From: Nitrososphaeria archaeon
Lineage (GTDB): Archaea; Thermoproteota; Nitrososphaeria; Geothermarchaeales; JDFR-13
Length of the DNA: 20,659 nucleotides
Reading direction: 5' to 3'
NCBI GenBank assembly: GCA_027047855.1
Contig: JALTTZ010000090.1
Span: forward strand, 1-20,659
Each line of letters opens with the position of its first letter. Position 1 is the first letter of the stretch. Under the pieces are notes generated by a model that did not search any database, was not told the DNA's origin, and saw only the letters and a list, made by a program, of their open reading frames with translations. Shown piece after piece: positions 3,207 through 20,586 of the stretch. The position numbers were made by a program, and so were the translations under genes.

Positions 3207-3707
3207 CTAACTACCCCCATATATGACATCATCATACTTACCTTCCTTAACCAATCTAGTCACTTCCTTCGGATCCATATTCTCTACTTTAACACCCATG
3301 CTAACACACGTCCCAATTACTTGTAAAACTACTTTCTTAAGGTCACTTAAATTAATCTTTCTATTAACTATCTTAGCGATATTAACCACTTGTTCCATAC
3401 TCAAGTTACCCACAAACTCCTTGCCGGGATTGCTGCTTCCCTTCTCGATCCCAGCCTCTTTAGCTATGAGGGCTGAGGTTGTAGGTATACCGACCTCTAT
3501 CTCAAACTCCTTTGTATCGACATCGACAATTATCTTTACGGGCACCCTCATACCACGGAAATCAGCGGTTAACTCATTGATCTTATCCACAATCTGTTTA
3601 ACGTTAACTCCAAGTGGGCCTAAAGCCGGGCCTAGTGGGGGGCCGGCGGTCGCGGCTCCACCACTAACCAATGCCTCAACAACCTGTTTCTTCCCCATAT
3701 CCATCAC
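3207..3707 (-). CDS. rpl11: Ribosomal protein L11 (uL11)
   Basis: [21 protein letters not shown] is the L11 N-terminal signature. The GTG start at 3707 overlaps the spt5 stop (GTGA); alternative ATG starts are at 3704 and 3698. Confidence 0.95.
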
Positions 3708-4165
3708 TCCTCCTTCTTCTTAAGACTAGATACCGATATTATGATAGGTATAGGTGAAATAGACGCATCTTGAAGCTGTATTACAGCTTCGCGCCTATCC
3801 TTCTCACCTCTAATATTAATAACCTTGGCAACCATACCCCTAAAGGGTCCTGAAACAACCTCAACAATATCCCCTACCTCTATGACTTCCTCCTCCTTAC
3901 CGATCTCCAATAGAGTCTCTAAGTCCGAGTCACTCAACACACCAGGCAATATTTTCTTAAAATACTTGATGTTCTCAAAAGCCTTCACGACGTCGATATA
4001 CGCCGCAGCCTCAACAACCAACACACCCTTCATATTAGGAGGCTTAAAAATAGATTTAATCCTAAGATTACCCCCCGAATTCTTAACTTTAATCCATACC
4101 ATACGAGCTATATGCTCCTCCTGGCCGCTCGTCACCGAAACCATAAAAAACCTGCTGCTAGCCAT
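3704..4165 (-). CDS. spt5: Transcription elongation factor Spt5/NusG
   Basis: NGN-like N-terminus [17 protein letters not shown] plus a KOW-like [18 protein letters not shown]. It lies between secE and rpl11. I trimmed the tracked ORF (to 4219) back to ATG 4165, because the extension overlaps the secE 3' end. Confidence 0.9.
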
Positions 4166-8251: not shown

Positions 8252-8277
8252 TCCGTGAAAACACCAAGCCCACTCAC

Positions 8278-8676
8278 TCAATCCTTCGCTGGAAGAACCC
8301 ACACACCAGCATCCTCGGTCTTAACAACCCTAACTTTAATCCTCCTAGGTGGATTCCTAATCCCCCTACTCCAAATAATCTCATTAACCTCCTCTGAAAT
8401 CCTAATATTAGGATCCTTCATATGCCTCTCCATAAACCTCCTCAAAAAGGTAACCGCCTTCTTAGCCCTATGCAAACCACGCTTATACCTGAAAGCCTTG
8501 TATAAAGGAACTACATATATACGTTCCTCCAGAATCTTGGTACTCTCATCAACATATTTAAATAGGATATCCTCTTCTTCCTCCGCCTTCTCCTCAACCT
8601 CAGGCTTCTCCTCTACAGTCTCCTCAGGCTCTTCCTCAACCTTCTCTTCGAGACGCTCCTCAGCCTCACTAAACAT
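8278..8676 (-). CDS. rpl31e: Ribosomal protein L31e with a ~45-aa acidic N-terminal extension
   Basis: The core ERIYVVPLYKAF...HRAKKAVTFLRRFMERHM...IRISEEVNEIIWSRGIRNPPRRIKVRV is L31e-like. The only in-frame ATG/GTG/TTG upstream of this core is ATG 8676. Confidence 0.9.
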   Translation of the reverse strand: MFSEAEERLEEKVEEEPEETVEEKPEVEEKAEEEEDILFKYVDESTKILEERIYVVPLYKAFRYKRGLHRAKKAVTFLRRFMERHMKDPNIRISEEVNEIIWSRGIRNPPRRIKVRVVKTEDAGVWVLPAKD

Positions 8677-8695
8677 AGAAACACCACCTCATAAC

Positions 8696-8872
8696 CTACT
8701 TAAAGAATCGCTTAGTCTTCAACTTCAACTTAGTCCTACGCCAATGCCTCCTACTAGGTGTAGTCCGAACCCTACCATTAGTCTTAGCTATAACCCAGAC
8801 CGGGACACTTTTGTTACTCCTATACGCAGCCGCCAAATGCTTCTTAAACGCATATGTCTTAACCCTCGCCAT
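8696..8872 (-). CDS. rpl39e: Ribosomal protein L39e, 58 aa
   Basis: Not in the ORF track because it is short. My translation is [58 protein letters not shown]. It has the VPVWV and [11 protein letters not shown]39e signatures and the canonical position next to rpl31e. Confidence 0.9.
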
Positions 8873-8874
8873 AC

Positions 8875-9162
8875 CTAAAACCCCCTAATCCTAAAATCTT
8901 TCCTAGTCTGAACCCTAGCCAAAATACTCTTCAACTCACCATCACTAATCCTATGATCCAACCTACCCTGAACACCCAACTGAATAATAATATCCTCAAC
9001 CCTCCTAGCCAACTCAGGCTTAACGAGAGAGACCCTTCTAAGCCTCTCCCTAGCCTCAGGAGTAAGAAACTGCCTAAGAAGAGCCTGCCTCTTAACCTGC
9101 TCCTCCTTATCCTCATCCTTAGAGGGTTGCTGAGGCCCCCAATAACTCATAACCAAACTCAC
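8875..9162 (-). CDS. PDCD5/TFAR19-like DNA-binding protein
   Basis: [35 protein letters not shown] fits the PDCD5-like family pattern. It lies between rps19e and rpl39e, as in many archaea. Confidence 0.8.
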
Positions 9163-9614
9163 CCCACATACTCCTCATACCAAGGCTTAATATCGAGCTC
9201 CCTCTTAATACTAGCTGCCAACTTATCCAATAAACTACGGCCCTTAGACGTCAAAACCCTACCCTTAGGAGTCTTCTCAACCAAACCAGCCTCCTCCAAC
9301 TGCTGCAGAATCTTCCTAATAATAGCGCCACCACCCTTATAAAAATGCTCCGGCCGGACGCCCCTATCCTTACGCCCACCATACATAAGCCTCAAATCAT
9401 CAACACCCAAAGGCCCCTTCAAATACAACTTCCTCAGAATAGAGGCAGCCCTCTTATACCACCAATCCGGATCATCCGGAGGCCTCTCCCTAGAGACACC
9501 AGTCTTAACCCATAGACTCCACTCCGGAGGCCTAACACTCTCAACCTCAGACTTAATATACACACTCAACCGCTCAATAAAAACATCCGCAGGCACATCC
9601 TTAACACTAACCAC
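9159..9614 (-). CDS. rps19e: Ribosomal protein S19e
   Basis: VSVKDVPADVFIERLSVYIK...PEWSLWVKTGVSRERPP...WWYKRAASILRKLY...GGGAIIRKILQQLE matches S19e. The start is trimmed to GTG 9614, with a TATA box 21-28 nt upstream; the tracked ORF starts at TTG 9635. Confidence 0.9.
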   Translation of the reverse strand: MVSVKDVPADVFIERLSVYIKSEVESVRPPEWSLWVKTGVSRERPPDDPDWWYKRAASILRKLYLKGPLGVDDLRLMYGGRKDRGVRPEHFYKGGGAIIRKILQQLEEAGLVEKTPKGRVLTSKGRSLLDKLAASIKRELDIKPWYEEYVG

Positions 9615-9634
9615 TTCCACACACCCACACAACA

Positions 9635-9642
9635 ATTATATT
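9635..9642 (-). promoter_or_regulatory. TATA box (aatataat on the minus strand) for rps19e
   Basis: It lies 21-28 nt upstream of GTG 9614, which suggests a leaderless mRNA. Confidence 0.45.
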
Positions 9643-9704
9643 CAAATAACCCACAAACCCTATATTTATATCTTAACTAAAACAACAGAAATATATAAAC
9701 AAAA

Positions 9705-9766
9705 GGGTCAGAGAGACCAAAAACCAATCACCAAACAATCATAACTGCTCCAGATCATCATCCCCC
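9705..9766 (-). ncRNA. Candidate C/D box sRNA (62 nt)
   Basis: The minus strand reads GGGGG-AUGAUGA-UCUGGAGCAGUU-AUGA-UUGUUUG-GUGAUUG-GUUUUUGGUCUCU-CUGA-CCC. The C box (RUGAUGA) and D box (CUGA) are perfect, and GGG/CCC closes the terminal stem. The 43-nt interior divides into a 12-nt guide, a degenerate D', a 7-nt loop, a degenerate C' and a 13-nt guide. A TATA box lies 25-34 nt upstream and a T-rich tract (UUUUGUUUAUAUAUUU) follows. Confidence 0.6.
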
Positions 9767-9790
9767 AAAACAAAAAACAAACCAAAAAAC

Positions 9791-9800
9791 TATAAATAAA
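9791..9800. promoter_or_regulatory. Shared, apparently bidirectional TATA box (tataaataaa / tttatttata)
   Basis: Its right edge is 28 nt from the tRNA-Met 5' end (9828). Its left edge is 25 nt from the candidate sRNA 5' end (9766). No other TATA-like element lies between the two divergent RNA genes. Confidence 0.5.
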
Positions 9801-9850
9801 ACCAAAACAAAAAAATACAATATAGACGCCGGGGTAGCTCAGCCTGGCAG

Positions 9851-9872
9851 ACCCCCACACAGGGGGACCCAA
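9851..9872 (+). other. tRNA-Met intron 1 (about 22 nt) in the D-arm, a non-canonical position
   Basis: acccccacacagggggacccaa interrupts the D-loop/D-stem junction. Removing it restores the GCTC/GAGC D-stem. The exact cut is ambiguous by 1-2 nt. Internal hairpin: CCCCC-ACACA-GGGGG. Confidence 0.75.
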
Positions 9873-9887
9873 AGCGCCGGACTCATA

Positions 9888-9923
9888 ATCGAAAAAGGGG
9901 AGCTAAACCCCCTTAAAGGAGAC
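9888..9923 (+). other. tRNA-Met intron 2 (about 36 nt) at the canonical 37/38 position
   Basis: Removing atcgaaaaaggggagctaaacccccttaaaggagac restores the CTCATAA loop and the CCGGA/TCCGG stem. Confidence 0.8.
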
Positions 9924-9961
9924 ATCCGGAAGTCGCGGGTTCAAATCCCGCCCCCGGCACA

Positions 9962-9966
9962 TTTTT
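9962..9966 (+). terminator. Oligo-T (T5) immediately after tRNA-Met
   Basis: The sequence cacATTTTTatg follows the discriminator base directly. Archaeal RNA polymerase terminates at oligo-T tracts. Confidence 0.5.
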
Positions 9967-10023
9967 ATGTATCAATAAATTAACGAGGTTTTTAATCTAC
10001 GTAATTAATAAATAATTTGAAAG

Positions 10024-10554
10024 ATGGTTGCAATGACCTCGTTATATAGAAGGCCTGACATATATGATGCCATTTTCTCTTTGGATCCTATAATCGAGAT
10101 TAATTTTTACAAGGGAATAATTGAGAATTTCGGCATAAGGTTTGATAAACCTGGGGTCGGTGTAATAGATTTTGAGAATGGCACTGGCAAACTCCTCGGT
10201 AAATTACCTGCTGATAAGGCGTTTCTTCTGGGTGTGGATGTGAGTATGGATATAGAAAACATGGTGGGAAGTTTGATGCTATTATAGAAAGCATGAAGTC
10301 TGTACGAAGTCGTGTGGAAAATAATTGACATCAATCAACATCTCAATAAGATGGTAGAGGTAATCACTGTTAAGACAGGTTCAAAATTAGTTCTCCAACA
10401 TAGAGCAATGCTTACAATAATTAAATATGAAGAGTTCCGTAACATAGTTGATGATATAGGTTTTAGATTGGAGTATTGGCTAAAGCCCCTCGAAATAACT
10501 TCATTAAGAAAACCACAACAGGGAAGAATTATAGTAGTCCTTAGAAAGCCTTAA
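10024..10554 (+). pseudogene. Decayed class I SAM-dependent methyltransferase (in-frame stops, frameshift, degenerate motif I)
   Basis: The N-terminal ORF has YDAIFS...VIDFENGTGKL..LGVDVS, which is motif I with GCG replaced by ENG. It ends at TAG 10285-10287 and a TGA follows 2 codons later. The expected GKFDAII (post-motif II) is readable only in another frame at about 10263-10285. The C-terminal piece 10312-10554 returns to the first frame. The total length is far shorter than a normal methyltransferase. Confidence 0.6.
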
Positions 10555-10625
10555 CCGCCATATTTGATTAACAGCCGGAATCAGTATATTATGTTAAATA
10601 TTTATGTCTATGTTTAATTCTTTAT

Positions 10626-10829
10626 ATGCCGCTCATGATGCTGACTATTAAAAAGGGAGTTTATAAGAAGCTTTTGAAGTTGAATAGAAGATGTGAGCGT
10701 TTTAGCGGTTTGCTCCTTAAGTTGGTTAGGAGAGGTCGTAATATTGATATTTTATATGAATTGGCTGGCTCGGTAGATTGGATAGCTAAAGAGGAGTTGC
10801 TCAAAGATATTTATTCACGTAGGTTCTAG
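10626..10829 (+). CDS. Orphan small antitoxin-like protein (archaeal VapB / COG1753-like pattern)
   Basis: TIKKGVYKKLLKLNRRCERFSGLLLKLV resembles the (S/T)IxxxVYxxLxxLK...SFSDVIxxLl pattern of archaeal putative antitoxins. No PIN gene follows; 290 bp of non-coding DNA follows instead. Confidence 0.4.
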   Translation: MPLMMLTIKKGVYKKLLKLNRRCERFSGLLLKLVRRGRNIDILYELAGSVDWIAKEELLKDIYSRRF

Positions 10830-11119
10830 GTAGGAAAGTGTCCTTGAATAAAAGTCCTATTATAGATAATAAATGGAAGTCCAGATAGTGGGGCTGAATT
10901 AATAGTGAACATAGTTGATTCAGGAAAGAAGGTGGGTGCAATTCAATAACCCTTTTTATAAAGATTTATTCAAAATAAGTTGGAATGAGTGGCATCAAGA
11001 GATTATTGGAAATAGGCATCGTAGAGTATAACAAAGATATACAGCTATATTAGTGCTTCATGATGGTTATGCTACGTGTACGCTACAGATTTTTATGAAT
11101 TAGGATATAATTTTATTCA

Positions 11120-12487
11120 GTGATACATATGGAGACCGAGTATGTAAAAAGGGATTATAAGAAGAGGAGTTATTGGTTGGAGCAGTTGGGCGATATTACA
11201 CCTAATCCATCCTTGGAGGGAGAAGGTGAAACAGATATAGCAATTATAGGCGGTGGATACACTGGTTTATCAACAGCTTACCACCTAAAGACCTACGATA
11301 AAGGGGTTGAGGTTGCGCTTCTTGAGGCGGAAATATGCGGATACGGTGCCAGTGGAAGAAATGGAGGATTCAATATGACCCTGTTTGGCTTAACCCCGAC
11401 ACAGACTATGAATACTTTCGGGGTTGAGAAGGGCAGGGAGGCCAGGAAGTTTATGGAGGAGTCCGTAGACTACCTAGCCAATTTCATTAAGGAACATGAG
11501 GTGGACTGTGAATATGAAGGAAGCGGATACCTCTTAGTCGCAACTAATAAGGCCCAGGTAAAGAGACTTAAGGAGGAATTTAAGGCTGCTGAAGAGATGG
11601 ATTTCGAGGGTGTCGAGGAGTGGGATAGAGAGAAGCTTAGGGAGGAGTTTAATACCGATAAGTATTTATTGGGGTGGTTTGAGGAGAGGTGTGGAATACT
11701 TAATCCAGCTAAGTGGGCTAGGGAATTGAAGAGATTGGCTGAGGAAGTGGGGGCTAAAATCTATGAGTACTCGCCAGTATTAAAGGTTGAAAGGGATAAT
11801 GGGGATGGATATAAATATGTTTTGAGGACGCCTAAGGGCATATTGAGAGCCAAGAGAGTTGTGTTTGCCACAAATGCCTACTCAATATTGTTTCCAGAGC
11901 TCTATAAACTCCAGACACCGGCCTTCACAAGGATAGTCTTAACCGAACCTCTGACTGAGGAGCAGATGGAGAGCATTGGATGGAGAAGCAGAGCTGGTAT
12001 AGAGGATGCTAGGAACTTTATTCACTATTACAGACTGACCAAGGACAATAGGATACTATTGGGAGGCGGGGACGTCGGAGTAACCTATGGAAAAAACATG
12101 GAGAAAGACCTAGATAGAAAGAACTTTGAGGAACTAAAGAGATACTTACTGTGGGTCTTCCCCCAGCTAAAAGGCATAAAATTCACCCACGAATGGGGCG
12201 GCCCAGTCTCAATAACTCTCGACATGGCCCCAGCCATCGGATTCCTAGATAGAGACAAAACAATGATATATGCACTAGGCTACATTGGACACGGAGTCTC
12301 AGCAACATTCAACGTAGGAAGAACCCTAGCCGAACTCCTCCTAAACATAGATACACACCGAACCAAACTCTTCATCATAGGCCGAAAAATAAGTACATGG
12401 CCACCAGAACCACTCAGATACATCCTAAGCCAAATAATACGAGGCTACATGAGACTAGAAGACAAACTACGATACGGAGAAAAATAG
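11120..12487 (+). CDS. FAD-dependent oxidoreductase (DAO/glycine-oxidase superfamily)
   Basis: DIAIIGGGYTGLSTAYHL is the dinucleotide-binding GxGxxG motif, and the 455-aa length is typical of the family. The real start may be ATG 11129 (METEYV), which has a TATA-like tttttatgaatt about 30-40 nt upstream. Confidence 0.8.
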   Translation: MIHMETEYVKRDYKKRSYWLEQLGDITPNPSLEGEGETDIAIIGGGYTGLSTAYHLKTYDKGVEVALLEAEICGYGASGRNGGFNMTLFGLTPTQTMNTFGVEKGREARKFMEESVDYLANFIKEHEVDCEYEGSGYLLVATNKAQVKRLKEEFKAAEEMDFEGVEEWDREKLREEFNTDKYLLGWFEERCGILNPAKWARELKRLAEEVGAKIYEYSPVLKVERDNGDGYKYVLRTPKGILRAKRVVFATNAYSILFPELYKLQTPAFTRIVLTEPLTEEQMESIGWRSRAGIEDARNFIHYYRLTKDNRILLGGGDVGVTYGKNMEKDLDRKNFEELKRYLLWVFPQLKGIKFTHEWGGPVSITLDMAPAIGFLDRDKTMIYALGYIGHGVSATFNVGRTLAELLLNIDTHRTKLFIIGRKISTWPPEPLRYILSQIIRGYMRLEDKLRYGEK

Positions 12488-12490
12488 AAG

Positions 12491-12593
12491 TGGTGGGGCC
12501 GGCCGGACTTGAACCGGCGACCTCCCGGTCTTCAGCCTCGCCACGGTCCCACACAAAAACCGCTCGGGCGCTCTCCCGCTGAGCTACGGCCCC
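12491..12593 (-). tRNA. tRNA-Phe (GAA) with one non-canonical intron; CCA encoded
   Basis: The spliced reading is GGGGCCG-TA-GCTC-AGCGGGA-GAGC-G-CCCGG-CTGAAGA-CCGGG-AGGTC-GCCGG-TTCAAGT-CCGGC-CGGCCCC-A-CCA. The anticodon GAA is the complement of 12531-12533. Confidence 0.9.
12537..12564 (-). other. tRNA-Phe intron (28 nt) inside the 5' strand of the anticodon stem (about 29/30-30/31)
   Basis: Removing AGCGGTTTTTGTGTGGGACCGTGGCGAG restores the CCCGG/CCGGG stem. The cut site is ambiguous by 1 nt. Confidence 0.75.
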
Positions 12594-12779: not shown

Positions 12780-13577
12780 CTAAGCTTTTAATATGGTTAT
12801 TATATTATATACTATTCCATACTGCTTCTTCAATATACTGAAACCAATATTATTGAGAAAACTCTGGAGATCTCGTTTTCTAGAGATATCTATACGGTAG
12901 TTGTTACGATTTGTTTTGATGATGCCCCCTTTCTTAGTGATACATATTGTTCCAGCTCTGACGTTAATATATGGTCCAGTTGCAATTATATTGAAATATT
13001 TCTTCAGCAGATATTGTACATAGTATAGTAATGTTAAATTGTTGTTGTAAAGATGTATTCGTTTGCATCTATAGTTACATCCATCGCTATCATATATTCC
13101 CTTTAAGAAGTTCGCTACAGTCTCTTTATCATATTCAATATATTTCTTTAATGTTTCTAATGTTTGTTGTTTATACCATGTGTAAAACGCCTTAGAACGA
13201 TAGTATACTCTCCATCTATTGGATGCTTTACTCCACTCTGGTTCCTTATATTTCTTGCCAAGTAATATGGACATTGCTTTAGAAAATTCTTTAGCGAACT
13301 CATAGTCCCTAACCTTTAATTCAACTTCATATATGTTTCTTCTAGGCTTAACAAGGCACCCGTCTCCAAGCAGTACCCCTATCACATAGGCCAATCTAAT
13401 AGATGGTTCTGGATGCCACCTAGCGAGCCAAGGCTTCTTGCCTTCATATATCCAATCCTCGACCGTACGCTTCTTAACGCCAAGTCTCTTAGATATCTCA
13501 CTAAGCTTAAACCCATCCTTATACATATCTATAGCCATCTTATACTGATCATAGGAATAACTCCTGTATCCAGCCAT
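12780..13577 (-). CDS. Free-standing double-motif LAGLIDADG homing-endonuclease-like protein with an N-terminal HTH
   Basis: Two LAGLIDADG motifs are present: LAYVIGVLLGDGCL and VANFLKGIYDSDGC. The N-terminal HTH is LSEISKRLGVKKRTVEDWI. A GGAGGT Shine-Dalgarno-like sequence (13585-13590) lies 7 nt before ATG 13577; the tracked ORF starts at GTG 13583. The coding strand is A-rich with A-ending codons, unlike its neighbours. Confidence 0.8.
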   Translation of the reverse strand: MAGYRSYSYDQYKMAIDMYKDGFKLSEISKRLGVKKRTVEDWIYEGKKPWLARWHPEPSIRLAYVIGVLLGDGCLVKPRRNIYEVELKVRDYEFAKEFSKAMSILLGKKYKEPEWSKASNRWRVYYRSKAFYTWYKQQTLETLKKYIEYDKETVANFLKGIYDSDGCNYRCKRIHLYNNNLTLLYYVQYLLKKYFNIIATGPYINVRAGTICITKKGGIIKTNRNNYRIDISRKRDLQSFLNNIGFSILKKQYGIVYNIITILKA

Positions 13578-13876
13578 AAACACTACCTCCTATAACTTGT
13601 AAGAATAATACTTACGGGTGGCTCTATGTCCATATTATATGTGCCCACGATAACATAATCTGCAAAACATCGATGATGCAGGCCGATTCTCTCAACGAGA
13701 CTAGCTCCACTATATCACATCGTTTTAACATATAGCAAGAGTATATCTTGATAAAAGCCGGGTTAGACATTCTCCACATAATTAATTGCTATTTTATATT
13801 TAAACCAAGACTAGTATACAGAACATTATTTAAATTCGGGCAATTATAATGATCCATGTTCTATCTCAAAACTTCT

Positions 13877-14638
13877 TTATAACAGTACGATTGCTATTGC
13901 TCCTAGTAGTGTTATGATTGCTAGTATTAGTGTTAGTACGTATGTTTTTAGTTTCTTGGCTATTGTTAGGAGTGTTTTTAGTGTTGCTAGGCCGGTTATG
14001 TATGCGGTTGGCAATGCGGGCCACGCATTTAGAACCACCGGATTATTTATACTTAGGTAGATTGTAGACAGGATTACCACTGGAACAGAGATAAGATAGG
14101 ATAGTTTGAGGATATCCTGTGGCTTTAGACCTCCCATCGATAGACTGAACATGGTGACTGCGGAGCGGGATATACCTGGTATAACCGCTATTCCCTGGAG
14201 AAGGCCCGTCAGTAAAGCTAGCTTTGTCTGGCCTATAACTATATTCTCTTCTTGGGAAATTTTCATATTCAATGTCGTAGTTATGAGAAAGCCTAAACCG
14301 ATTATAAAGAGGATATATGGGCCGACGGCCACCTCCCTAACAAGCAGATATATAGGAAGCCCACTAAACAGGGACGCCAACGTAGCATAGAGAATAAACC
14401 TAAATAGATCCATGTCTCTAAATAGGAGGACATTAATCCAATCACGATAAAAAAAGGTCACGACCGCCAGCAACGTACCTAAATGCAGAAACAGAGCCAC
14501 ATCAACATAATTAATACTAACACCAAACAACTGACCAAATATGACTAGAAAAGCTTCACTCGACACAGGTAGCCACTCCAAAACACCCTGAATAAAACCC
14601 AACAAAATATACTCAATCATTCCAAACCACAACTGCAC
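13877..14638 (-). CDS. uppP: Undecaprenyl-diphosphatase (UppP/BacA family)
   Basis: A polytopic membrane protein with the N-terminal GFIQGVLEWLPVSSEAFLVI motif (UppP consensus E(F/W)LPVSSxxHL-like) and a later PGISRSAVT motif. Start is GTG 14638 or ATG 14620 (MIEYILLG). Confidence 0.8.
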   Translation of the reverse strand: MQLWFGMIEYILLGFIQGVLEWLPVSSEAFLVIFGQLFGVSINYVDVALFLHLGTLLAVVTFFYRDWINVLLFRDMDLFRFILYATLASLFSGLPIYLLVREVAVGPYILFIIGLGFLITTTLNMKISQEENIVIGQTKLALLTGLLQGIAVIPGISRSAVTMFSLSMGGLKPQDILKLSYLISVPVVILSTIYLSINNPVVLNAWPALPTAYITGLATLKTLLTIAKKLKTYVLTLILAIITLLGAIAIVLL

Positions 14639-14720: not shown

Positions 14721-14809
14721 GGGCCCGTGGTCTAGCGGTAGGACAGGTCAGCCCCTAAGGCCGCCCTCGCAAGGCGGAGATCCGGGTTCAATTCCCGGCG
14801 GGTCCACCA
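14721..14809 (+). tRNA. tRNA-Ala (CGC) with a 15-nt non-canonical intron; CCA encoded
   Basis: The spliced reading is GGGCCCG-TG-GTCT-AGCGGTA-GGAC-A-CCGCC-CTCGCAA-GGCGG-AGAT-CCGGG-TTCAATT-CCCGG-CGGGTCC-A-CCA. The G3:U70 alanine identity pair is present. The anticodon CGC is at 14768-14770. Confidence 0.88.
14746..14760 (+). other. tRNA-Ala intron (15 nt) at about position 26/27, between the D-arm and the anticodon stem
   Basis: ggtcagcccctaagg must be removed to place position 26 next to the CCGCC stem. The cut is ambiguous by 1 nt. Confidence 0.7.
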
Positions 14810-14836: not shown

Positions 14837-15322
14837 CTAGTATATTATATACCATGTGCCAAGGGCTATGGCGCAGATCTGGCCCTCCCGGTCAACGATC
14901 TTTCCTTCGCAGACGATGGTTTTCCTTCCTGTCCTGATTACTTTTCCAACTATTTTGAAGGGAGAATTGTTTTTGGCCATAGGTTTAAGGAAGTTTATCT
15001 TGAGTTCAAGAGTTACTTGATTATTCCCTGGATTAACTGTTAAAGCCGATGTGCCCATAACTTGATCTAGAAGCGCAGTAACTATGCCTCCATGAAGTAT
15101 TCCCCCTATCCGGGTATGCCGCTCATCGAATTTATAGAATGCCTCGGCCCTGCCCCTCGAAATATCCTCAAACATTAACCCAAGGAAATCATGCATAGGG
15201 CTATTTGCCTTAAACATATCATTTAACTGAGGCAGCCGTTCTTTAATTACTCCCTCGTCAATCATCCTTTGGAGAAATTTTATTGGGGATCTATAACTCT
15301 CCATACCTCTATTCACCATCAC
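14837..15322 (-). CDS. PaaI/hotdog-fold thioesterase family protein
   Basis: GGILHGGIVTALLDQVMG is the PaaI-type thioesterase signature, and the 161-aa length is typical. Confidence 0.8.
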   Translation of the reverse strand: MMVNRGMESYRSPIKFLQRMIDEGVIKERLPQLNDMFKANSPMHDFLGLMFEDISRGRAEAFYKFDERHTRIGGILHGGIVTALLDQVMGTSALTVNPGNNQVTLELKINFLKPMAKNNSPFKIVGKVIRTGRKTIVCEGKIVDREGQICAIALGTWYIIY

Positions 15323-17382: not shown

Positions 17383-17616
17383 ATGAAGAGGGTATTTAGC
17401 TTCAAGATTGATGAGGAATTGTGGAGAGAGATGAAGAGACATCCATATATAAACTGGAGTGAGGTTATTCGAGAAGCCATAGCAAAGAGGTTATCCCAAG
17501 AAAAAGGGAGCAGAGTGGGATACGCCGTTAAACTACACATGGAAGCACTATCCAAGATCCAGCCAAGCGACACAGACATAACCGAAATCATAAGAAAATA
17601 TAGGGATCGAAGATGA
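17383..17616 (+). CDS. vapB: RHH/CopG-type antitoxin (VapB-like)
   Basis: MKRVFSFKIDEELWREMKRHPYINWSEVIREAIAKRL reads as beta-strand, helix, helix. Its stop overlaps the PIN gene start (ATGA at 17613-17616). The start is trimmed from the tracked 17338. Confidence 0.75.
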   Translation: MKRVFSFKIDEELWREMKRHPYINWSEVIREAIAKRLSQEKGSRVGYAVKLHMEALSKIQPSDTDITEIIRKYRDRR

Positions 17617-18023
17617 AGACACTAATATTAGACGCATCGGTATTAGCAAAGACCTTCGTAAAAGAAGACAATAGCGACAAAGCAATGGAATTAATAGACG
17701 GATACCTAAAAGGAGAATACAGCATAATAATATCAGAACTAACCATATGGGAAGTACTAAACGCACTTAAGTACCATAAAGCATTCCCAAACGAGATGCT
17801 AGCTAAAGTAGGTGAAGCACTATACTACTACGGCTTCGAGATAACCAGCCTCAACCTAGAACTCATACTCAAAACCATCGAGATAGCAACAGAAAATAAT
17901 ATAACAATATACGACGCAACATACCTAGCACTCACAGAACTACATAAAGGCGAATTCATAACAGCCGACAAGAAACTATATGAAAAAATACACAGCAAAT
18001 ACCCAACCAGACTACTCAAATAA
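17613..18023 (+). CDS. vapC: PIN-domain ribonuclease toxin (VapC)
   Basis: MKTLILDASVL carries the first acidic residue. ISELTIWEV, IYDATYLALT and FITADKKL follow in the spacing typical of the PIN acidic residues. Confidence 0.85.
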   Translation: MKTLILDASVLAKTFVKEDNSDKAMELIDGYLKGEYSIIISELTIWEVLNALKYHKAFPNEMLAKVGEALYYYGFEITSLNLELILKTIEIATENNITIYDATYLALTELHKGEFITADKKLYEKIHSKYPTRLLK

Positions 18024-18101
18024 AATATCTACAGAAAATGAATGTCTGCATTAGAATCAAACCCACATATAAAAACAAACTTAGGTAAATAATTTCTGGA
18101 T

Positions 18102-19649
18102 ATGCTGCCGCACTTCACACCTATAGTAAGTCCCGAGGCCTTGGAACATATTGGCGGATTACTAGATGAATTCCAATACGCCATACTCCCCTACTATTTG
18201 GTTTGGCACGATGACCCCACCTCACTCAAACACGAGTTAAGCAAATATGATGTTGAGTGGATATTGTCAAGCATAATGCCTGACGAGGCTCTGCTGAGAA
18301 GTGATATACACATCCGGTTCCTCGAATTCGCGTCTAAAATGGGGGTTAGACACCTAGTTGTCTGGGATATGCCCACATACCTAGAGAATTATGAAGATAG
18401 CCTGAGGAATACCGAGATATCCATAAATAGGCTCCTATGGTTCAGAGAGAACTACCAACATAACATTATTCCATTGGCGAAGGGAGCTTATCCAGAACAG
18501 CTAAGGATATCCTTGGAGAACATATTAGGCTTAGGTTATGAAGTGGTCGCCTTCCACGTAAGTGAGTATCTAACAAGTAGATTGCCCCCCTATCCGTACA
18601 TAGATGACAAGACATTGACGGCCAAAGACTATATGATGCAGATGATCAAGGTCATAACTGAATACCCCTTCAATGAGATACTCTTGATTGGGGTGGGTAA
18701 TCCAAAGACGGTTAGGGAGCTGGATTGGGACGACAGGTTTAGATATGCCGGATACTCATGGTATATAGATGGAAAGAACTTCAGGCTATATACAGGCGAG
18801 AAGGTCATCGACGTCGGTTACAGATATTTTGAGTGTAGCTGCCCAGCCTGTAAATACACCCCACCATTAATTAGGAGAAGAACCTCCCTGCCCGGGCATA
18901 ATCTACTCATCATCCGGGGGGTTGCCGAGGATGAGGAGGTAATAGAGCCAAGGATATATGAACTCATAGCGGATCACCATGAGGACATCCTAATCATATC
19001 CGGCCTCTACGTCGGAAACAGATACAGTAGGTGGCGTGAAGCCATTAAAGTAATTGAGGAGATGGAGCCGAGCCACCTAATATTCCTGGGCAACACATTC
19101 CATGTAGGCGAAGACACCATATACAATATGTGGAGAGAATTCCTAGAATGGCTAGTAAACTATTGCAACGGAACAGGGACACTTATCCATGTGGTTAAGG
19201 GGGTTTGGGAGACCTGGCCTGTAGACATACTAAAAAACAGGTATACAGTATACCTCGGTGTAGAGGACCCCCTACAAACCAGGCTAGAACCTGAGGAGAA
19301 GTATCCCTTAGGCCTCCTCCATAGATTCTACACGCCCTCATGGACAAAGATGCACATAAGAAAATATACATTGGATGGATCGATAGACATATACGTATAC
19401 ACCCTAAACAAGTACCACGACACTCTAACCCCAGAAGAGGCTGAGGAGTGGCTCACAAACGAAAAACGATTCAAACAAATAGATATGCTATACACAGACC
19501 TAACAACCTACCCCATACTAAACCAAGAAGAGGGGATCGGAAGCCCAGGAATATGGCTAAGGAAGATAGAGGCAAGAACCCCATCCAAACCCGGGGCAAT
19601 ACACATAAACAACAAGGGAGAAGCAAAGCTAATAACACCAGAGGAATAA
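18102..19649 (+). CDS. Uncharacterised 515-aa protein: divergent TGT/DpdA-like transglycosylase barrel (aa 1-~285) fused to a degenerate calcineurin-type phosphoesterase-like domain (aa ~290-400) plus a C-terminal region
   Basis: Ordered motif matches to the tRNA-guanine transglycosylase family: FTPIVSP (aa 5-11), VVWDMPTY (86-93), LLIGVGNPKTV (194-204), ELDWDD (206-211), and CSCPAC-x15-HNL (245-268) as the Zn site. These are followed by ILIISGLYVGN (296-306), HLIFLGNTFH (325-334) and LIHVVKGVWE (361-370). Those three are spaced like metallophosphoesterase motifs I-III, but every metal ligand is substituted. This is a by-eye call and needs profile or structure confirmation. Confidence 0.45.
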   Translation: MLPHFTPIVSPEALEHIGGLLDEFQYAILPYYLVWHDDPTSLKHELSKYDVEWILSSIMPDEALLRSDIHIRFLEFASKMGVRHLVVWDMPTYLENYEDSLRNTEISINRLLWFRENYQHNIIPLAKGAYPEQLRISLENILGLGYEVVAFHVSEYLTSRLPPYPYIDDKTLTAKDYMMQMIKVITEYPFNEILLIGVGNPKTVRELDWDDRFRYAGYSWYIDGKNFRLYTGEKVIDVGYRYFECSCPACKYTPPLIRRRTSLPGHNLLIIRGVAEDEEVIEPRIYELIADHHEDILIISGLYVGNRYSRWREAIKVIEEMEPSHLIFLGNTFHVGEDTIYNMWREFLEWLVNYCNGTGTLIHVVKGVWETWPVDILKNRYTVYLGVEDPLQTRLEPEEKYPLGLLHRFYTPSWTKMHIRKYTLDGSIDIYVYTLNKYHDTLTPEEAEEWLTNEKRFKQIDMLYTDLTTYPILNQEEGIGSPGIWLRKIEARTPSKPGAIHINNKGEAKLITPEE

Positions 19650-19692
19650 CCGGCAGAGATTCATAACACAGAAAACACACTTAATTATATTT

Positions 19693-20586
19693 GTGGGGCA
19701 ATACTCCAGCGGCGAAACCCCAGAAACAAGAGAGACACAGCAACTAACCCTAGACATAAGCATCGACAGAGAAAAATACCTATACATACACCTAAAGAAA
19801 AGCATCCTAGAAAAACTAGGAATAAAAGAACCCGGCATCTACAAACTAACCCTAAAACTAAACGGAGAGACCTACACCACCTACATACACATCAAAAAAC
19901 TAAAGAAACAGAAACTAAACCTACCCCCAAAATACCAGGGCAAAACCAAAGCAACAATAACAAACATAGAAAAATACAACCTAGAAAAAATACTCCAAAC
20001 AATAAACAAACACTACAGAGAAGGCCATATAGACTACACAATAATCCAAGAAAATGGTAATAACTACCTCAAAATAGGTAACGTAACCAAAGAAATAAAG
20101 AAAATGAACATCAGAATCTACCAAGGCACAATAAACCTAGACATAGAGATAGACGCGGCACCAGAAAAAACCCTACGCCTACAAATAAGAATACAAGATG
20201 ATAAACCAGAACTATACTACAACATAAGAGGAAAATACACGTACTACAAAATAACAAAAATAAAAACAACACCAGATGTAACAGTACTAATATACAAAGA
20301 AACAGAAAAAGGAAAGAAAGTAGATAGACACGTATACATTCTTCCCACCGAAGTATCTAGAAATATGAAAAAGATCCTAGAAAGTCTGAAAATAAGAGAT
20401 TTTAGGTTTTTAGATAGAGAAAGAATGTTTGGACGTATATTTGAAGTATATAAAATAATTCTAGAACCTAAAACAAAACTACAAATAGATGCATTTTTGG
20501 ATTATACATACAGAATTTACTTTAGTACACCCAACTGGAGATATGGCCAACAAAGAAAGGGAAAAGATCGGACTTATCATTGCTGA
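19693..20586 (+). CDS. Lysine-rich 297-aa orphan protein, possible AbrB/SpoVT-like N-terminal DNA-binding domain
   Basis: The frame stays open across a T-poor region in which the other two frames are full of cTAAa/aTAAa stops. YIHLKKSILEKLGIKEPGIYKLTLKLNG resembles the AbrB-like (v)tIPKeireklGikeGdkv pattern. GTG 19693 is the only usable start upstream of aa 147, and it lies 43 nt after the preceding stop, so the two genes are probably co-transcribed. Confidence 0.5.
   Translation: MGQYSSGETPETRETQQLTLDISIDREKYLYIHLKKSILEKLGIKEPGIYKLTLKLNGETYTTYIHIKKLKKQKLNLPPKYQGKTKATITNIEKYNLEKILQTINKHYREGHIDYTIIQENGNNYLKIGNVTKEIKKMNIRIYQGTINLDIEIDAAPEKTLRLQIRIQDDKPELYYNIRGKYTYYKITKIKTTPDVTVLIYKETEKGKKVDRHVYILPTEVSRNMKKILESLKIRDFRFLDRERMFGRIFEVYKIILEPKTKLQIDAFLDYTYRIYFSTPNWRYGQQRKGKDRTYHC

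What the first reader, a model, noticed from the sequence alone, without database searches (positions are those of the whole stretch)
12040..12593. Codon dialect flips inside the FAD-oxidoreductase gene for the ~450 bp that lie downstream (antisense) of convergent tRNA-Phe
In one continuous ORF, codons at about 11560-11760 are roughly three-quarters G/T-ending. From about 12040 to the stop at 12487, roughly five-sixths are A/C-ending (cta, ata, aca, gca, cga, tac, gac). Both are hand counts. The flipped tract abuts the 3' end of tRNA-Phe (minus strand, 12491), so it is exactly where tRNA read-through transcription would run. In that tract the minus strand is G/T-rich, as the window-wide rule would predict for a minus-strand transcription unit. 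One caveat: a T5 tract lies right after the tRNA CCA and should terminate part of the transcription.
Basis: partly seen in the sequence, partly recalled or inferred. Interest (0 to 1): 0.6.

Follow-up and report, generated by a model that had tools for sequence, protein, structure and literature searches.

The report
Codon flip between two tRNA genes
One archaeal gene really is written in two opposite codon styles, because in this lineage silent-site composition is set by the DNA strand and, locally, probably by distance to the nearest tRNA gene rather than by gene direction.

Summary
In ORF 11120-12487, G/T-ending codons make up 77% at 11560-11760 and 18% at 12040-12484. The change point is about 12050-12170. 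This is the largest within-gene swing among 1,224 ORFs of the genome.

G+T at silent sites follows the DNA strand over whole contigs, whichever way genes point. The A/C-rich 3' quarter is therefore the normal state of this contig's + strand. The oddity is a 2.2-kb neutral-to-G/T island that runs from the + strand tRNA at 9828-9959 to about codon 345.

The gene was acquired from WOR-3-like bacteria, whose copies are flat. All four congeners share the flip. In three of them a 1.85-kb gene follows the stop, and in G001 this places tRNA-Phe 2.1 kb away. In those three the tract is eroding.

A tRNA-centred asymmetry does exist across the genus. Upstream of tRNA genes the tRNA-sense strand is A/C-enriched (-0.15, p about 1e-7). 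Downstream it is weakly G/T-enriched (+0.05, p about 0.01).

My best reading (0.5) is a strand-wide bias plus tRNA-centred local bias, with two convergent tRNA zones meeting inside the gene. The main rival (0.27) is a historical mosaic. The scan earlier noted tRNA-centred skew in an Asgard archaeon.

The parts
11120..12487 (+). FAD-dependent oxidoreductase gene (DAO family, 455 aa), the gene that carries the flip
   Evidence: Pfam PF01266, E = 7e-66, covering residues 39-406. The ORF is intact and collinear with its homologues.
9960..12050 (+). Counter-biased island where the + strand is neutral to G/T-rich at silent sites (0.45-0.80), inside a contig whose + strand is otherwise 0.03-0.38
   Evidence: The island begins right after the + strand tRNA. 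The ORFs at 10024-10287 and 10312-10554 have no Pfam hit.
12155..12487 (+). A/C-ending 3' tract of the oxidoreductase gene. G/T-ending frequency is 0.11 overall and 0.04 at codons whose amino acid is conserved with the bacterial homologues.
   Evidence: The level matches the most extreme native + strand genes of this contig.
12491..12593 (-). tRNA-Phe(GAA) with a 28-nt intron, convergent with the oxidoreductase gene; encoded CCA, then T5
9828..9959 (+). Intron-containing tRNA gene at the left edge of the island. Silent-site G+T on the + strand jumps from 0.03-0.10 on its left to about 0.6 on its right.
   Evidence: Rfam, 48 bits; (second-largest dipole amplitude of 42 tRNA loci).
8278..9635 (-). 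L31e, PDCD5-like and S19e genes with extreme G/T-ending codons (0.83-0.94), lying upstream of the tRNA at 9828
12780..13583 (-). LAGLIDADG/HTH gene. It looks mobile: it sits at a different site in G002, which carries several copies. It separates tRNA-Phe from uppP in this genome only.
13877..14638 (-). uppP (BacA) gene with a second within-gene gradient (+ strand silent G+T falls from 0.82 to 0.15). In G002, where it directly abuts the upstream side of tRNA-Phe, the gradient runs from 0.97 to 0.32.
14721..14806 (+). tRNA gene at a third A/C-to-G/T step
   Evidence: Rfam, 44.7 bits.
14837..15322 (-). Thioesterase (4HBT) gene whose 3' part, next to the tRNA, is G/T-rich on the + strand (0.72). 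The same holds in G001. It is absent (0.45) in G002, where a LAGLIDADG gene intervenes.

Best explanation
Two layers of strand-asymmetric mutation bias set the silent-site composition of this gene.

Layer 1 (shown). In this genus of Geothermarchaeota-type archaea, one DNA strand of each contig is G/T-rich at silent sites whichever way the genes point. This is a Borrelia-like, replication-type strand bias. In this contig the minus strand is the G/T strand, so any + strand gene drifts to A/C-ending codons.

Layer 2 (shown statistically; its cause is inferred). Around tRNA genes, the strand that runs 5'->3' away from the tRNA is extra G/T-rich. The effect is strong for about 450-600 bp upstream and weak, with varying strength, downstream.

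The oxidoreductase gene was acquired from WOR-3-like bacteria with flat codon usage. It lies between two convergent tRNA genes. Its last ~110 codons lie next to tRNA-Phe, where both layers push the + strand towards A/C. Its first ~345 codons lie downstream of the + strand tRNA at 9828-9959. There the local layer opposes the strand-wide one and holds the + strand neutral to G/T. The 'flip' is the place where the two zones meet.

The chemistry I infer is deamination (C>T, A>G) of whichever strand is left single-stranded. Replication would do this chromosome-wide. Outward transcription from the very active tRNA promoters (read-through downstream, antisense upstream) would do it locally. No transcript has been observed.
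For: Layer 1. Adjacent ORFs of opposite orientation have anticorrelated G/T-ending frequency (r = -0.82), and those of the same orientation are correlated (r = +0.85). Whole contigs are uniform in + strand terms. The pattern holds for 356 genes validated by homology to a relative (r = 0.92; means 0.65 and 0.385).

Layer 2. In this genome the G+T skew excess on the tRNA-sense strand is -0.16 to -0.19 upstream and +0.06 to +0.08 downstream. Protein-gene controls give 0.00-0.03. At third codon positions the effect appears in neighbours of both orientations. It is also seen in the tRNA flanks of G001 and G002. Pooled over about 48 loci, the upstream excess is -0.151 +/- 0.024 (p about 1e-7) and the downstream excess is +0.052 +/- 0.018 (p about 0.01). 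The dipole is positive at 88% of loci.

Position matters more than gene identity. The uppP gradient is steepest (0.97 to 0.32) in G002, where uppP abuts tRNA-Phe. The thioesterase flip is present where the tRNA abuts (G000, G001) and absent where a gene intervenes (G002). In G001 a different, + strand ORF abutting the upstream side of the tRNA reaches 0.03-0.10, just as S19e does here.

The oxidoreductase tract is most extreme in this genome (0.04, against 0.16 in G001 and 0.33 in G002). On the terminal branches of the three genomes with an intervening gene, it changes almost only from A/C to G/T (31:3, mostly A>G and C>T). On those same tips the 5' part shows balanced changes (26:29) instead of drifting to A/C. 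The bacterial homologues are flat along the whole gene.
Against: The mean downstream effect at tRNA genes is small. It is carried by T>A only, with no G>C component, and in this genome alone it is not significant (p = 0.15). Excluding this window, the near-versus-far shift in convergent downstream genes is +0.04 +/- 0.04, against +0.41 here.

The tract exists in three relatives where tRNA-Phe is not adjacent. An 11-nt identity between this genome's junction and a site 60 bp from the tRNA in G001 suggests the adjacency here is derived by deletion. In G001 the 5' part of the 616-aa gene, 250-700 bp downstream of tRNA-Phe, is only weakly A/C-rich on the + strand (0.32-0.47).

The tract's level (0.07-0.17) is also reached by + strand genes of this contig with no tRNA nearby in the window. 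Ribosomal-protein operon genes further from tRNAs show no extra bias, so high transcription alone is not sufficient. The tRNA loci of the three genomes are orthologous and therefore not independent. No expression data exist.
Confidence: 0.5

Rival explanations
1. Historical mosaic with no causal role for tRNA genes. The 3' quarter has sat on the A/C strand long enough to reach the local equilibrium. The island (9960 to about 12050) is younger or foreign DNA that has not yet equilibrated. It would be either incompletely ameliorated horizontally acquired sequence, or a replacement of the gene's 5' three quarters by homologous recombination with an allele from a lineage where the gene lies on the other strand.
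For: The gene is of bacterial origin and was found only in this genus among 401 genomes of the class. The bacterial copies have G/T-ending frequencies of 0.49-0.59, like the 5' part here (0.52-0.59 at conserved codons). The tract's level is within the range of native + strand genes of this contig. Synonymous divergence between G000 and G001 is 0.21 in this gene against 0.43-0.57 in most flanking genes, which suggests exchange after the lineages split. The region is a rearrangement hot spot with a mobile LAGLIDADG gene and lineage-specific gain or loss of genes. In the 5' block the genus groups with P0003, and in the 3' block it does not.
Against: The transition is graded over 300-400 bp in all four lineages, not sharp. 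The 3' block does not reject the 5' topology (AU test p = 0.235). Amino-acid identity to the WOR-3 homologues is similar in both parts. No paralogue exists in the genome, and no donor lineage was found. Three other within-gene gradients within 5 kb all have their extreme at the tRNA-proximal end. The 5' part is not drifting to A/C in three lineages, although their flanking genes show the same strand bias.
Confidence: 0.27
2. The tRNA-centred asymmetry is real but comes from DNA synthesis rather than transcription. R-loops at heavily transcribed tRNA genes would prime short bidirectional replication or repair synthesis, so each tRNA gene would behave as a miniature origin. The gene would span the convergence zone between two such centres.
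For: The dipole has the polarity of a replication origin (A/C on the left, G/T on the right of the + strand). This holds whatever the tRNA's orientation and whichever strand of the contig is G/T-rich. The decline between neighbouring tRNA genes is near linear in G002's uppP. Ordinary genes show no transcription-linked gradient.
Against: There is no direct evidence for it. The strength differs between the upstream and downstream sides, which a symmetric origin would not predict. The range is very short.
Confidence: 0.08
3. Sense strands are G/T-rich as a rule, and read-through from tRNA-Phe alone rewrote the last 450 bp as if they belonged to a minus-strand transcription unit.
For: The tract abuts the tRNA's 3' end and is most extreme in the only genome with that adjacency. 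A weak general downstream effect exists.
Against: The rule is false. The flip is present where a 1.85-kb gene follows the FAD stop (tRNA-Phe is 2.1 kb away in G001). There the DNA next to the tRNA is only weakly biased. A T5 terminator follows the CCA.
Confidence: 0.07
4. Selection rather than mutation. An antisense RNA, an overlapping element, or translational selection would constrain the silent sites of the 3' quarter.
For: None found. The segment 11660-11840 is unusually conserved among congeners, but that lies in the 5' part.
Against: There is no minus-strand ORF of 80 aa or more and no Rfam hit over the tract. Silent sites there change freely and directionally between lineages. The same dialect is shared by unrelated genes on the strand.
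Confidence: 0.03
5. Assembly artefact: a chimeric join of two contigs inside a conserved gene.
For: The genome is a 146-contig, 75%-complete metagenome bin.
Against: Four assemblies (G000, G001, G002 and the JGI metagenome contig L071) share the intact, collinear gene with the same flip.
Confidence: 0.02

Closest known systems
Strand-specific codon usage from replication-associated mutation bias (Borrelia burgdorferi, Treponema, Chlamydia muridarum PMC2089121, Lawsonia intracellularis PMC2671203; review PMC3269012)
   Same: Silent-site composition is decided by the strand a gene lies on, not by its orientation. The G/T-rich strand carries more genes (175 against 107 validated genes). Genes on opposite strands use mirror-image codons.
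   Different: It occurs in an archaeon, where strand-specific mutational skew is reported to be greatly reduced (PMC12999951). It is confined to one genus of its family. The link to replication direction cannot be shown in a fragmented bin. The known cases do not include a flip inside one gene.
Transcription-associated mutagenesis at tRNA loci (Thornlow et al. 2018, PMC6130373)
   Same: tRNA genes are centres of a local mutational anomaly in their flanks. The 5' flank is more affected than the 3' flank. A deamination-type signature is invoked in both cases.
   Different: That work describes eukaryotic Pol III genes, elevated rates within tens of bp, and no lasting compositional dipole. Here the effect is a strand-compositional shift over 300-600 bp (up to 2 kb) that reaches into neighbouring protein genes, in an archaeon. 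Neither expression nor mutation rate was measured.
Skew jumps with gradual decline between origins ('N-domains' of mammalian genomes; from my own knowledge, Touchon et al. 2005, not read here)
   Same: The profile has a sawtooth shape: abrupt upward steps at fixed points and graded declines between them (G002 uppP).
   Different: The scale is 1-2.5 kb rather than hundreds of kb, and the steps sit on tRNA genes, not on mapped origins.
tRNA-adjacent genomic islands (integrative elements that target tRNA 3' ends)
   Same: Horizontally acquired cargo (the WOR-3-type oxidoreductase) lies directly downstream of a tRNA gene, with lineage-specific gene content between two tRNA genes.
   Different: No integrase is present, and I saw no repeat of the tRNA 3' end at the junctions I read. 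The compositional boundary lies inside a gene and is graded.

Membership tests
Replication-type strand-specific codon usage | Silent-site composition depends on the DNA strand and not on gene orientation | tested here: met
   r = -0.82 for adjacent opposite-orientation ORFs. For 356 homology-validated genes, r = 0.92 between strand baseline and G/T-ending frequency.
Replication-type strand-specific codon usage | The sign of the skew switches at the replication origin and terminus | not testable with these tools
   The bin has 146 contigs, the longest 41 kb. Nearly all contigs are uniform. The only closed relative (G006) lacks the bias.
Replication-type strand-specific codon usage | Excess of genes on the G/T-rich (presumed leading) strand | tested here: met
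   175 against 107 validated genes; 371 against 211 long ORFs.
Transcription-associated mutagenesis at tRNA loci | Flanks of tRNA genes differ from the background in a way that ordinary genes do not | tested here: met
   Upstream -0.151 +/- 0.024 and downstream +0.052 +/- 0.018. Protein-gene controls give 0.00-0.03. This measures composition, not rate.
Transcription-associated mutagenesis at tRNA loci | The 5' flank is more affected than the 3' flank | tested here: met
Transcription-associated mutagenesis at tRNA loci | Deamination signature (C>T, A>G) on the non-template strand downstream | tested here: inconclusive
   The downstream excess is T>A only, with no G>C component. Lineage-specific changes in the tract are transitions of the expected types.
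Transcription-associated mutagenesis at tRNA loci | Effect scales with tRNA gene expression | not testable with these tools
   No expression data. rRNA, SRP RNA and RNase P RNA genes are not assembled in G000-G002.
Transcription-associated mutagenesis at tRNA loci | Effect confined to tens of bp around the gene | tested here: not met
   The effect extends 450-600 bp upstream, and up to 2.2 kb downstream of the tRNA at 9828.
Recombination mosaic (tract of different origin) | The two parts have different phylogenies | tested here: inconclusive
   The position of P0003 differs between the blocks, but the 3' block does not reject the 5' topology (AU test p = 0.235). The 5' block rejects the 3' topology at p = 0.02.
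Recombination mosaic (tract of different origin) | Sharp breakpoint | tested here: not met
   Graded over about 300-400 bp in all four lineages.
Recombination mosaic (tract of different origin) | A donor allele or paralogue exists | tested here: not met
   No close paralogue in the 75%-complete bin. No congener has a uniform allele. DNA of the 80%-identical P0003 could not be fetched.
tRNA-targeting integrative element | Integrase gene and a direct repeat of the tRNA 3' end | tested here: not met
   No integrase domain between the two tRNA genes. No tRNA-end repeat seen at the junctions I inspected.

The most novel reading that the evidence does not exclude
In this archaeal genus every tRNA gene would be the centre of an origin-like strand-asymmetry dipole reaching hundreds of bp to about 2 kb into neighbouring genes. 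This would be a lasting compositional footprint of outward transcription, or of R-loop-primed DNA synthesis. It may be visible because the lineage appears to lack the NucS/EndoMS mismatch endonuclease and so records strand-asymmetric damage. Codon usage inside a single gene would then be set by its distance to the nearest tRNA genes.
Probability: 0.35. Interest if true: 0.8.

Novelty: new variant of a known kind. Interest (0 to 1): 0.6.

Why it matters
If the reading holds, silent-site composition in this lineage is a high-resolution record of which DNA strand is exposed, at two scales. Chromosome-wide, it would make the direction of replication readable in an uncultured archaeon, against the current view that archaea barely show strand-specific mutation (PMC12999951). 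Locally, it would show that tRNA genes imprint their neighbours over hundreds of bases. That extends transcription-associated mutagenesis at tRNA loci from eukaryotes to archaea and to a much larger scale.

It is also a practical warning. Codon-usage tests for horizontal transfer, expression level or gene calling will misfire in such genomes, because one gene can carry two 'dialects' without being chimeric. The possible link to loss of NucS/EndoMS offers a testable cause.

Tried and rejected
1. Recombination between inverted paralogues. The bin holds no close paralogue; the best other hits are 45% identity over 55 aa and 30% over 127 aa.

2. Assembly chimera. Four assemblies share the flip.

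3. A general 5'-to-3' gradient within genes. The metagene profiles are flat.

4. Reading replichore structure from a closed relative. G006, sampled every 80 kb, has no strand-wide bias, so it was uninformative.

5. Other stable-RNA genes as a test of the transcription idea. SSU rRNA, SRP RNA and RNase P RNA were not found in G000-G002.

The single metagenome scan did not return P0003's contig, but it did return a fourth congener.

7. Shadow-ORF artefact in my own gene calls. Some ORFs I called in the window are shadows of real genes (for example 3223-3723 and 8255-8878), so I repeated the key test on homology-validated genes only.

8. Insertion or deletion of the 616-aa gene. The rooted tree leaves both equally parsimonious. 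Junction microhomology favours deletion in this genome. Unresolved.

9. Pfam on the 616-aa ORF and the small island ORFs gave no hits.
Full report
THE OBSERVATION. The ORF at 11120-12487 (+) encodes a 455-aa FAD-dependent oxidoreductase of the DAO family (PF01266, E = 7e-66). G/T-ending codons make up 77% at 11560-11760 and 18% at 12040-12484. A single change point fits best at 12155, on a likelihood plateau from 12050 to 12170. The frequency is 0.57 before it and 0.11 after it, and none of 2000 permutations reached the observed gain. In 40-codon windows the change is graded over about 300-400 bp. Among 1,224 ORFs of the genome, this gene has the largest within-gene swing. The convergent tRNA is real: tRNA-Phe(GAA) at 12491-12593 (-), with a 28-nt intron in the anticodon stem, an encoded CCA 3 nt from the gene's stop, and a T5 run after it.

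THE PREMISE IS WRONG. The window is contig C90 of a 1.37-Mb, 146-contig, 75%-complete archaeal bin. A congener's record is titled 'Candidatus Geothermarchaeota archaeon'. Across the genome, neighbouring ORFs of the same orientation have correlated G/T-ending frequencies (r = +0.85). Neighbours of opposite orientation are anticorrelated (r = -0.82). In + strand terms, whole contigs are uniformly G/T-rich or A/C-rich.

Some ORFs in my crude calls were shadows of real genes. I therefore repeated the test on 356 genes validated by homology to a relative. Genes on the G/T strand average 0.65 and genes on the A/C strand average 0.385 (r = 0.92). Plus- and minus-strand genes of one contig share the same + strand value. 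In this window the real + strand genes at 17613-20586 (a PIN-domain gene and its neighbours) have G/T-ending fractions of 0.15-0.40.

The bias therefore belongs to the DNA strand, as in Borrelia or Lawsonia (PMC2671203), and not to the sense strand. The A/C-ending 3' quarter of the oxidoreductase gene is the default state of this contig's + strand. The anomaly is a 2.2-kb neutral-to-G/T island that starts right after the + strand tRNA at 9828-9959 and ends near codon 345. The bias is specific to the genus. A closed genome of another genus in the family shows only a mild sense-strand preference.

HISTORY OF THE GENE. No close paralogue exists in the bin. Orthologues at 93-95% amino-acid identity occur in the two other genomes of the genus and on one JGI metagenome contig. 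None was found in 398 other genomes of the class. The next relatives, at 74-76% identity, are from WOR-3 bacteria. Then come Desulfobacterota and Spirochaetes at 55-60%. The gene was therefore probably acquired from bacteria.

The bacterial copies are flat, with G/T-ending frequencies around 0.5 along the whole gene. All four archaeal copies have the flip at the same place, so it arose in the archaeal lineage. In three of them a 616-aa ORFan gene on the minus strand follows the stop. In G001 this places tRNA-Phe 2.1 kb away. Adjacency to tRNA-Phe is therefore not needed for the flip to exist.

The junction in this genome reads stop codon, then AAG, then the tRNA end. It shares an 11-nt string with a site 60 bp from the tRNA in G001. 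This fits two microhomology-mediated deletions in this genome. A rooted protein tree places this genome as sister to the other three (UFBoot 95), which leaves insertion and deletion equally parsimonious.

The 3' block shows no significant sign of a different origin. Identity to the WOR-3 proteins is similar in both parts. The 3' block does not reject the 5' topology (AU test p = 0.235). It does evolve faster at the protein level, as expected under a strong bias.

Rfam finds 25 tRNA genes in the bin. I measured G+T skew on the tRNA-sense strand relative to the contig baseline. The 0-300 bp downstream are slightly G/T-enriched (+0.06 to +0.08, s.e.m. 0.03). The 0-450 bp upstream are clearly A/C-enriched (-0.16 to -0.19, s.e.m. 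0.03-0.05). This holds with this window excluded. Protein-gene ends give 0.00-0.03.

At third codon positions the upstream shift appears in both divergent (-0.12 +/- 0.05) and tandem (-0.07 +/- 0.02) neighbours. That argues for mutation rather than codon selection. For convergent downstream neighbours the shift is +0.07 +/- 0.04, or +0.04 +/- 0.04 without this window, against +0.41 for the oxidoreductase gene.

Thirty tRNA loci from the two congeners show the same picture. Pooled over about 48 loci, which are orthologous and so not independent, the upstream excess is -0.151 +/- 0.024 (p about 1e-7). The downstream excess is +0.052 +/- 0.018 (p about 0.01), and it is carried by T>A with no G>C component. 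The dipole is positive at 88% of loci. In + strand terms the polarity is always A/C on the left and G/T on the right, whatever the tRNA's orientation or the contig's baseline. This is the polarity of divergent transcription or of a replication origin. The skew does not reverse downstream of every tRNA, but a tRNA-centred asymmetry exists.

THE WINDOW AS A SAWTOOTH. + strand silent-site G+T steps up at each of the three tRNA genes. It goes from 0.03-0.10 to about 0.6 at 9828-9959, from 0.07 to about 0.5-0.6 at tRNA-Phe, and from 0.15 to 0.72 at 14721-14806. It declines gradually in between. There is a fourth step at about 13,700.

Comparison with congeners explains that fourth step. In G002 no LAGLIDADG gene separates tRNA-Phe from uppP, and uppP shows a smooth gradient from 0.97 to 0.32 away from the tRNA. 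The LAGLIDADG/HTH gene looks mobile, since it occupies another site in G002 and is present there in several copies.

Three natural comparisons agree in direction. First, the uppP gradient is steepest where uppP abuts tRNA-Phe. Second, the thioesterase flip is present where its tRNA abuts (G000, G001: 0.72) and absent where the LAGLIDADG gene intervenes (G002: 0.45). Third, the oxidoreductase tract is most extreme where tRNA-Phe abuts (0.04 at conserved codons, against 0.16 in G001 and 0.33 in G002). In G001 a different, + strand ORF abuts the upstream side of the tRNA at the island's edge. It reaches 0.03-0.10 at its tRNA-proximal end, as the minus-strand S19e gene does here. Position therefore seems to matter more than gene identity.

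DIRECTION OF RECENT CHANGE. In a four-taxon alignment, terminal-branch changes in the 3' tract run almost only from A/C to G/T in the three genomes with the intervening gene: 22:0 in G002, 6:2 in L071 and 3:1 in G001. Most are A>G and C>T on the + strand. The sites that set this genome apart are A/C here and G/T in the others, 9:1. The protein tree puts most of that 3' block difference on the stem of the other three, since G000's own branch is near zero.

In the 5' part, the tips of the three relatives are balanced (26 G/T-to-A/C against 29 the other way). By my own rough estimate, this strand's baseline pressure would give a ratio near 3:1. The sites that set this genome apart are 21:8. The tract is therefore out of equilibrium wherever the tRNA is not adjacent. 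The island is not simply decaying to the strand baseline in those lineages.

Synonymous divergence between G000 and G001 is 0.21 in this gene, against 0.43-0.57 in most flanking genes. The 616-aa neighbour is only 66% identical between G002 and L071. An allele that evolved next to tRNA-Phe may therefore have spread among the lineages by recombination. This is inference.

VERDICT. I favour, at 0.5, a two-layer mutational explanation. A strand-wide, replication-type bias sets the baseline. A tRNA-centred local bias shapes the 5-kb region between 9,900 and 15,300. The gene spans the meeting point of the zones of two convergent tRNA genes. The cause of the local layer is not shown. Outward transcription with deamination of the exposed strand is the simplest idea, and it resembles transcription-associated mutagenesis at eukaryotic tRNA loci, where the 5' flank is also more affected than the 3' flank (PMC6130373).

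The main rival, at 0.27, is a historical mosaic. In that reading the 3' quarter is old and equilibrated, and the island is younger or recombined DNA. In its favour are the gene's foreign origin, the small average downstream effect, the persistence of the tract away from the tRNA, and the junction evidence for a derived adjacency.

CONTEXT. [quoted passage not shown] The scan's notes list several other archaeal windows with extreme strand bias. One of them reports skew centred on tRNA genes in an Asgard archaeon. I saw that note only, and it is an unchecked lead, not support.

As a possible cause I checked three repair families. EndoV and UDG are present in all three genomes of the genus. NucS/EndoMS (PF01939) was not found in any of them, although it occurs in 8 of 10 other genomes of the family. 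Each bin is 72-75% complete, so a chance miss in all three is roughly 2% if the misses are independent. One other family member without a NucS hit (G011) shows moderate orientation-independent bias, stronger than that of its NucS-positive congeners. Another (G008) shows little. This is suggestive only.

LIMITS. All genomes are fragmented bins. The tRNA loci of the three genomes are not independent. Substitution counts are small and polarised by parsimony.

Noticed in passing
whole genome G000 (all contigs); also G001 and G002: Silent-site G+T content differs strongly between the two DNA strands regardless of gene orientation (mean 0.65 against 0.385, up to 0.94 locally). This is unusual for an archaeon and absent from a closed genome of a sister genus.
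   Followed up: yes
G000, G001, G002 versus 10 other genomes of the family: The NucS/EndoMS mismatch endonuclease (PF01939) was not found in any of the three strongly biased genomes, but it is present in 8 of 10 family relatives. EndoV and UDG are present in all three. G011, which also lacks a hit, shows moderate strand bias.
   Followed up: partly
about 48 tRNA loci in G000, G001 and G002: The strongest tRNA-linked effect is upstream, not downstream. For about 450-600 bp the strand antisense to the tRNA is G/T-enriched, in divergent and tandem neighbours alike.
   Followed up: yes
window 11120-12487; L010-L014: The oxidoreductase gene looks like an interdomain transfer. Within the class it was found only in this genus, and its nearest relatives (74-76% identity) are WOR-3 bacteria.
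   Followed up: partly
window 11660-11840: This 180-bp stretch of the oxidoreductase gene is almost identical at silent sites in the three genus genomes compared, G000, G001 and G002 (0-3 differences per 28 codons, against 5-13 elsewhere). It may be a recent conversion tract or a constrained element.
   Followed up: no
window 12780-13583; G002:C90:1693-2487 and other G002 contigs: A LAGLIDADG/HTH gene occupies different tRNA-adjacent sites in different congeners and is multi-copy in G002, which suggests a free-standing mobile homing-endonuclease-like gene.
   Followed up: partly
G001:C135 (L007), G002:C38 (L008), L071:2111-3958: A 616-aa ORFan with no Pfam hit lies convergent to the oxidoreductase gene in three congeners and is missing here. 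It is only 66% identical between G002 and L071, although the adjacent oxidoreductase is about 93% identical.
   Followed up: partly
window 9828-9959, 12491-12593, 14721-14806: All three tRNA genes carry introns. The one in tRNA-Phe sits in the anticodon stem (position 31), not at the canonical site. Default ARAGORN missed two of the three and miscalled the third as tRNA-Pyl.
   Followed up: partly
window 8278-12487 versus G001: Synonymous divergence from G001 falls from 0.43-0.57 to 0.38, 0.32, 0.23 and 0.21 on approaching the tRNA-flanked region. This may reflect extreme codon bias or a recent recombination tract.
   Followed up: partly
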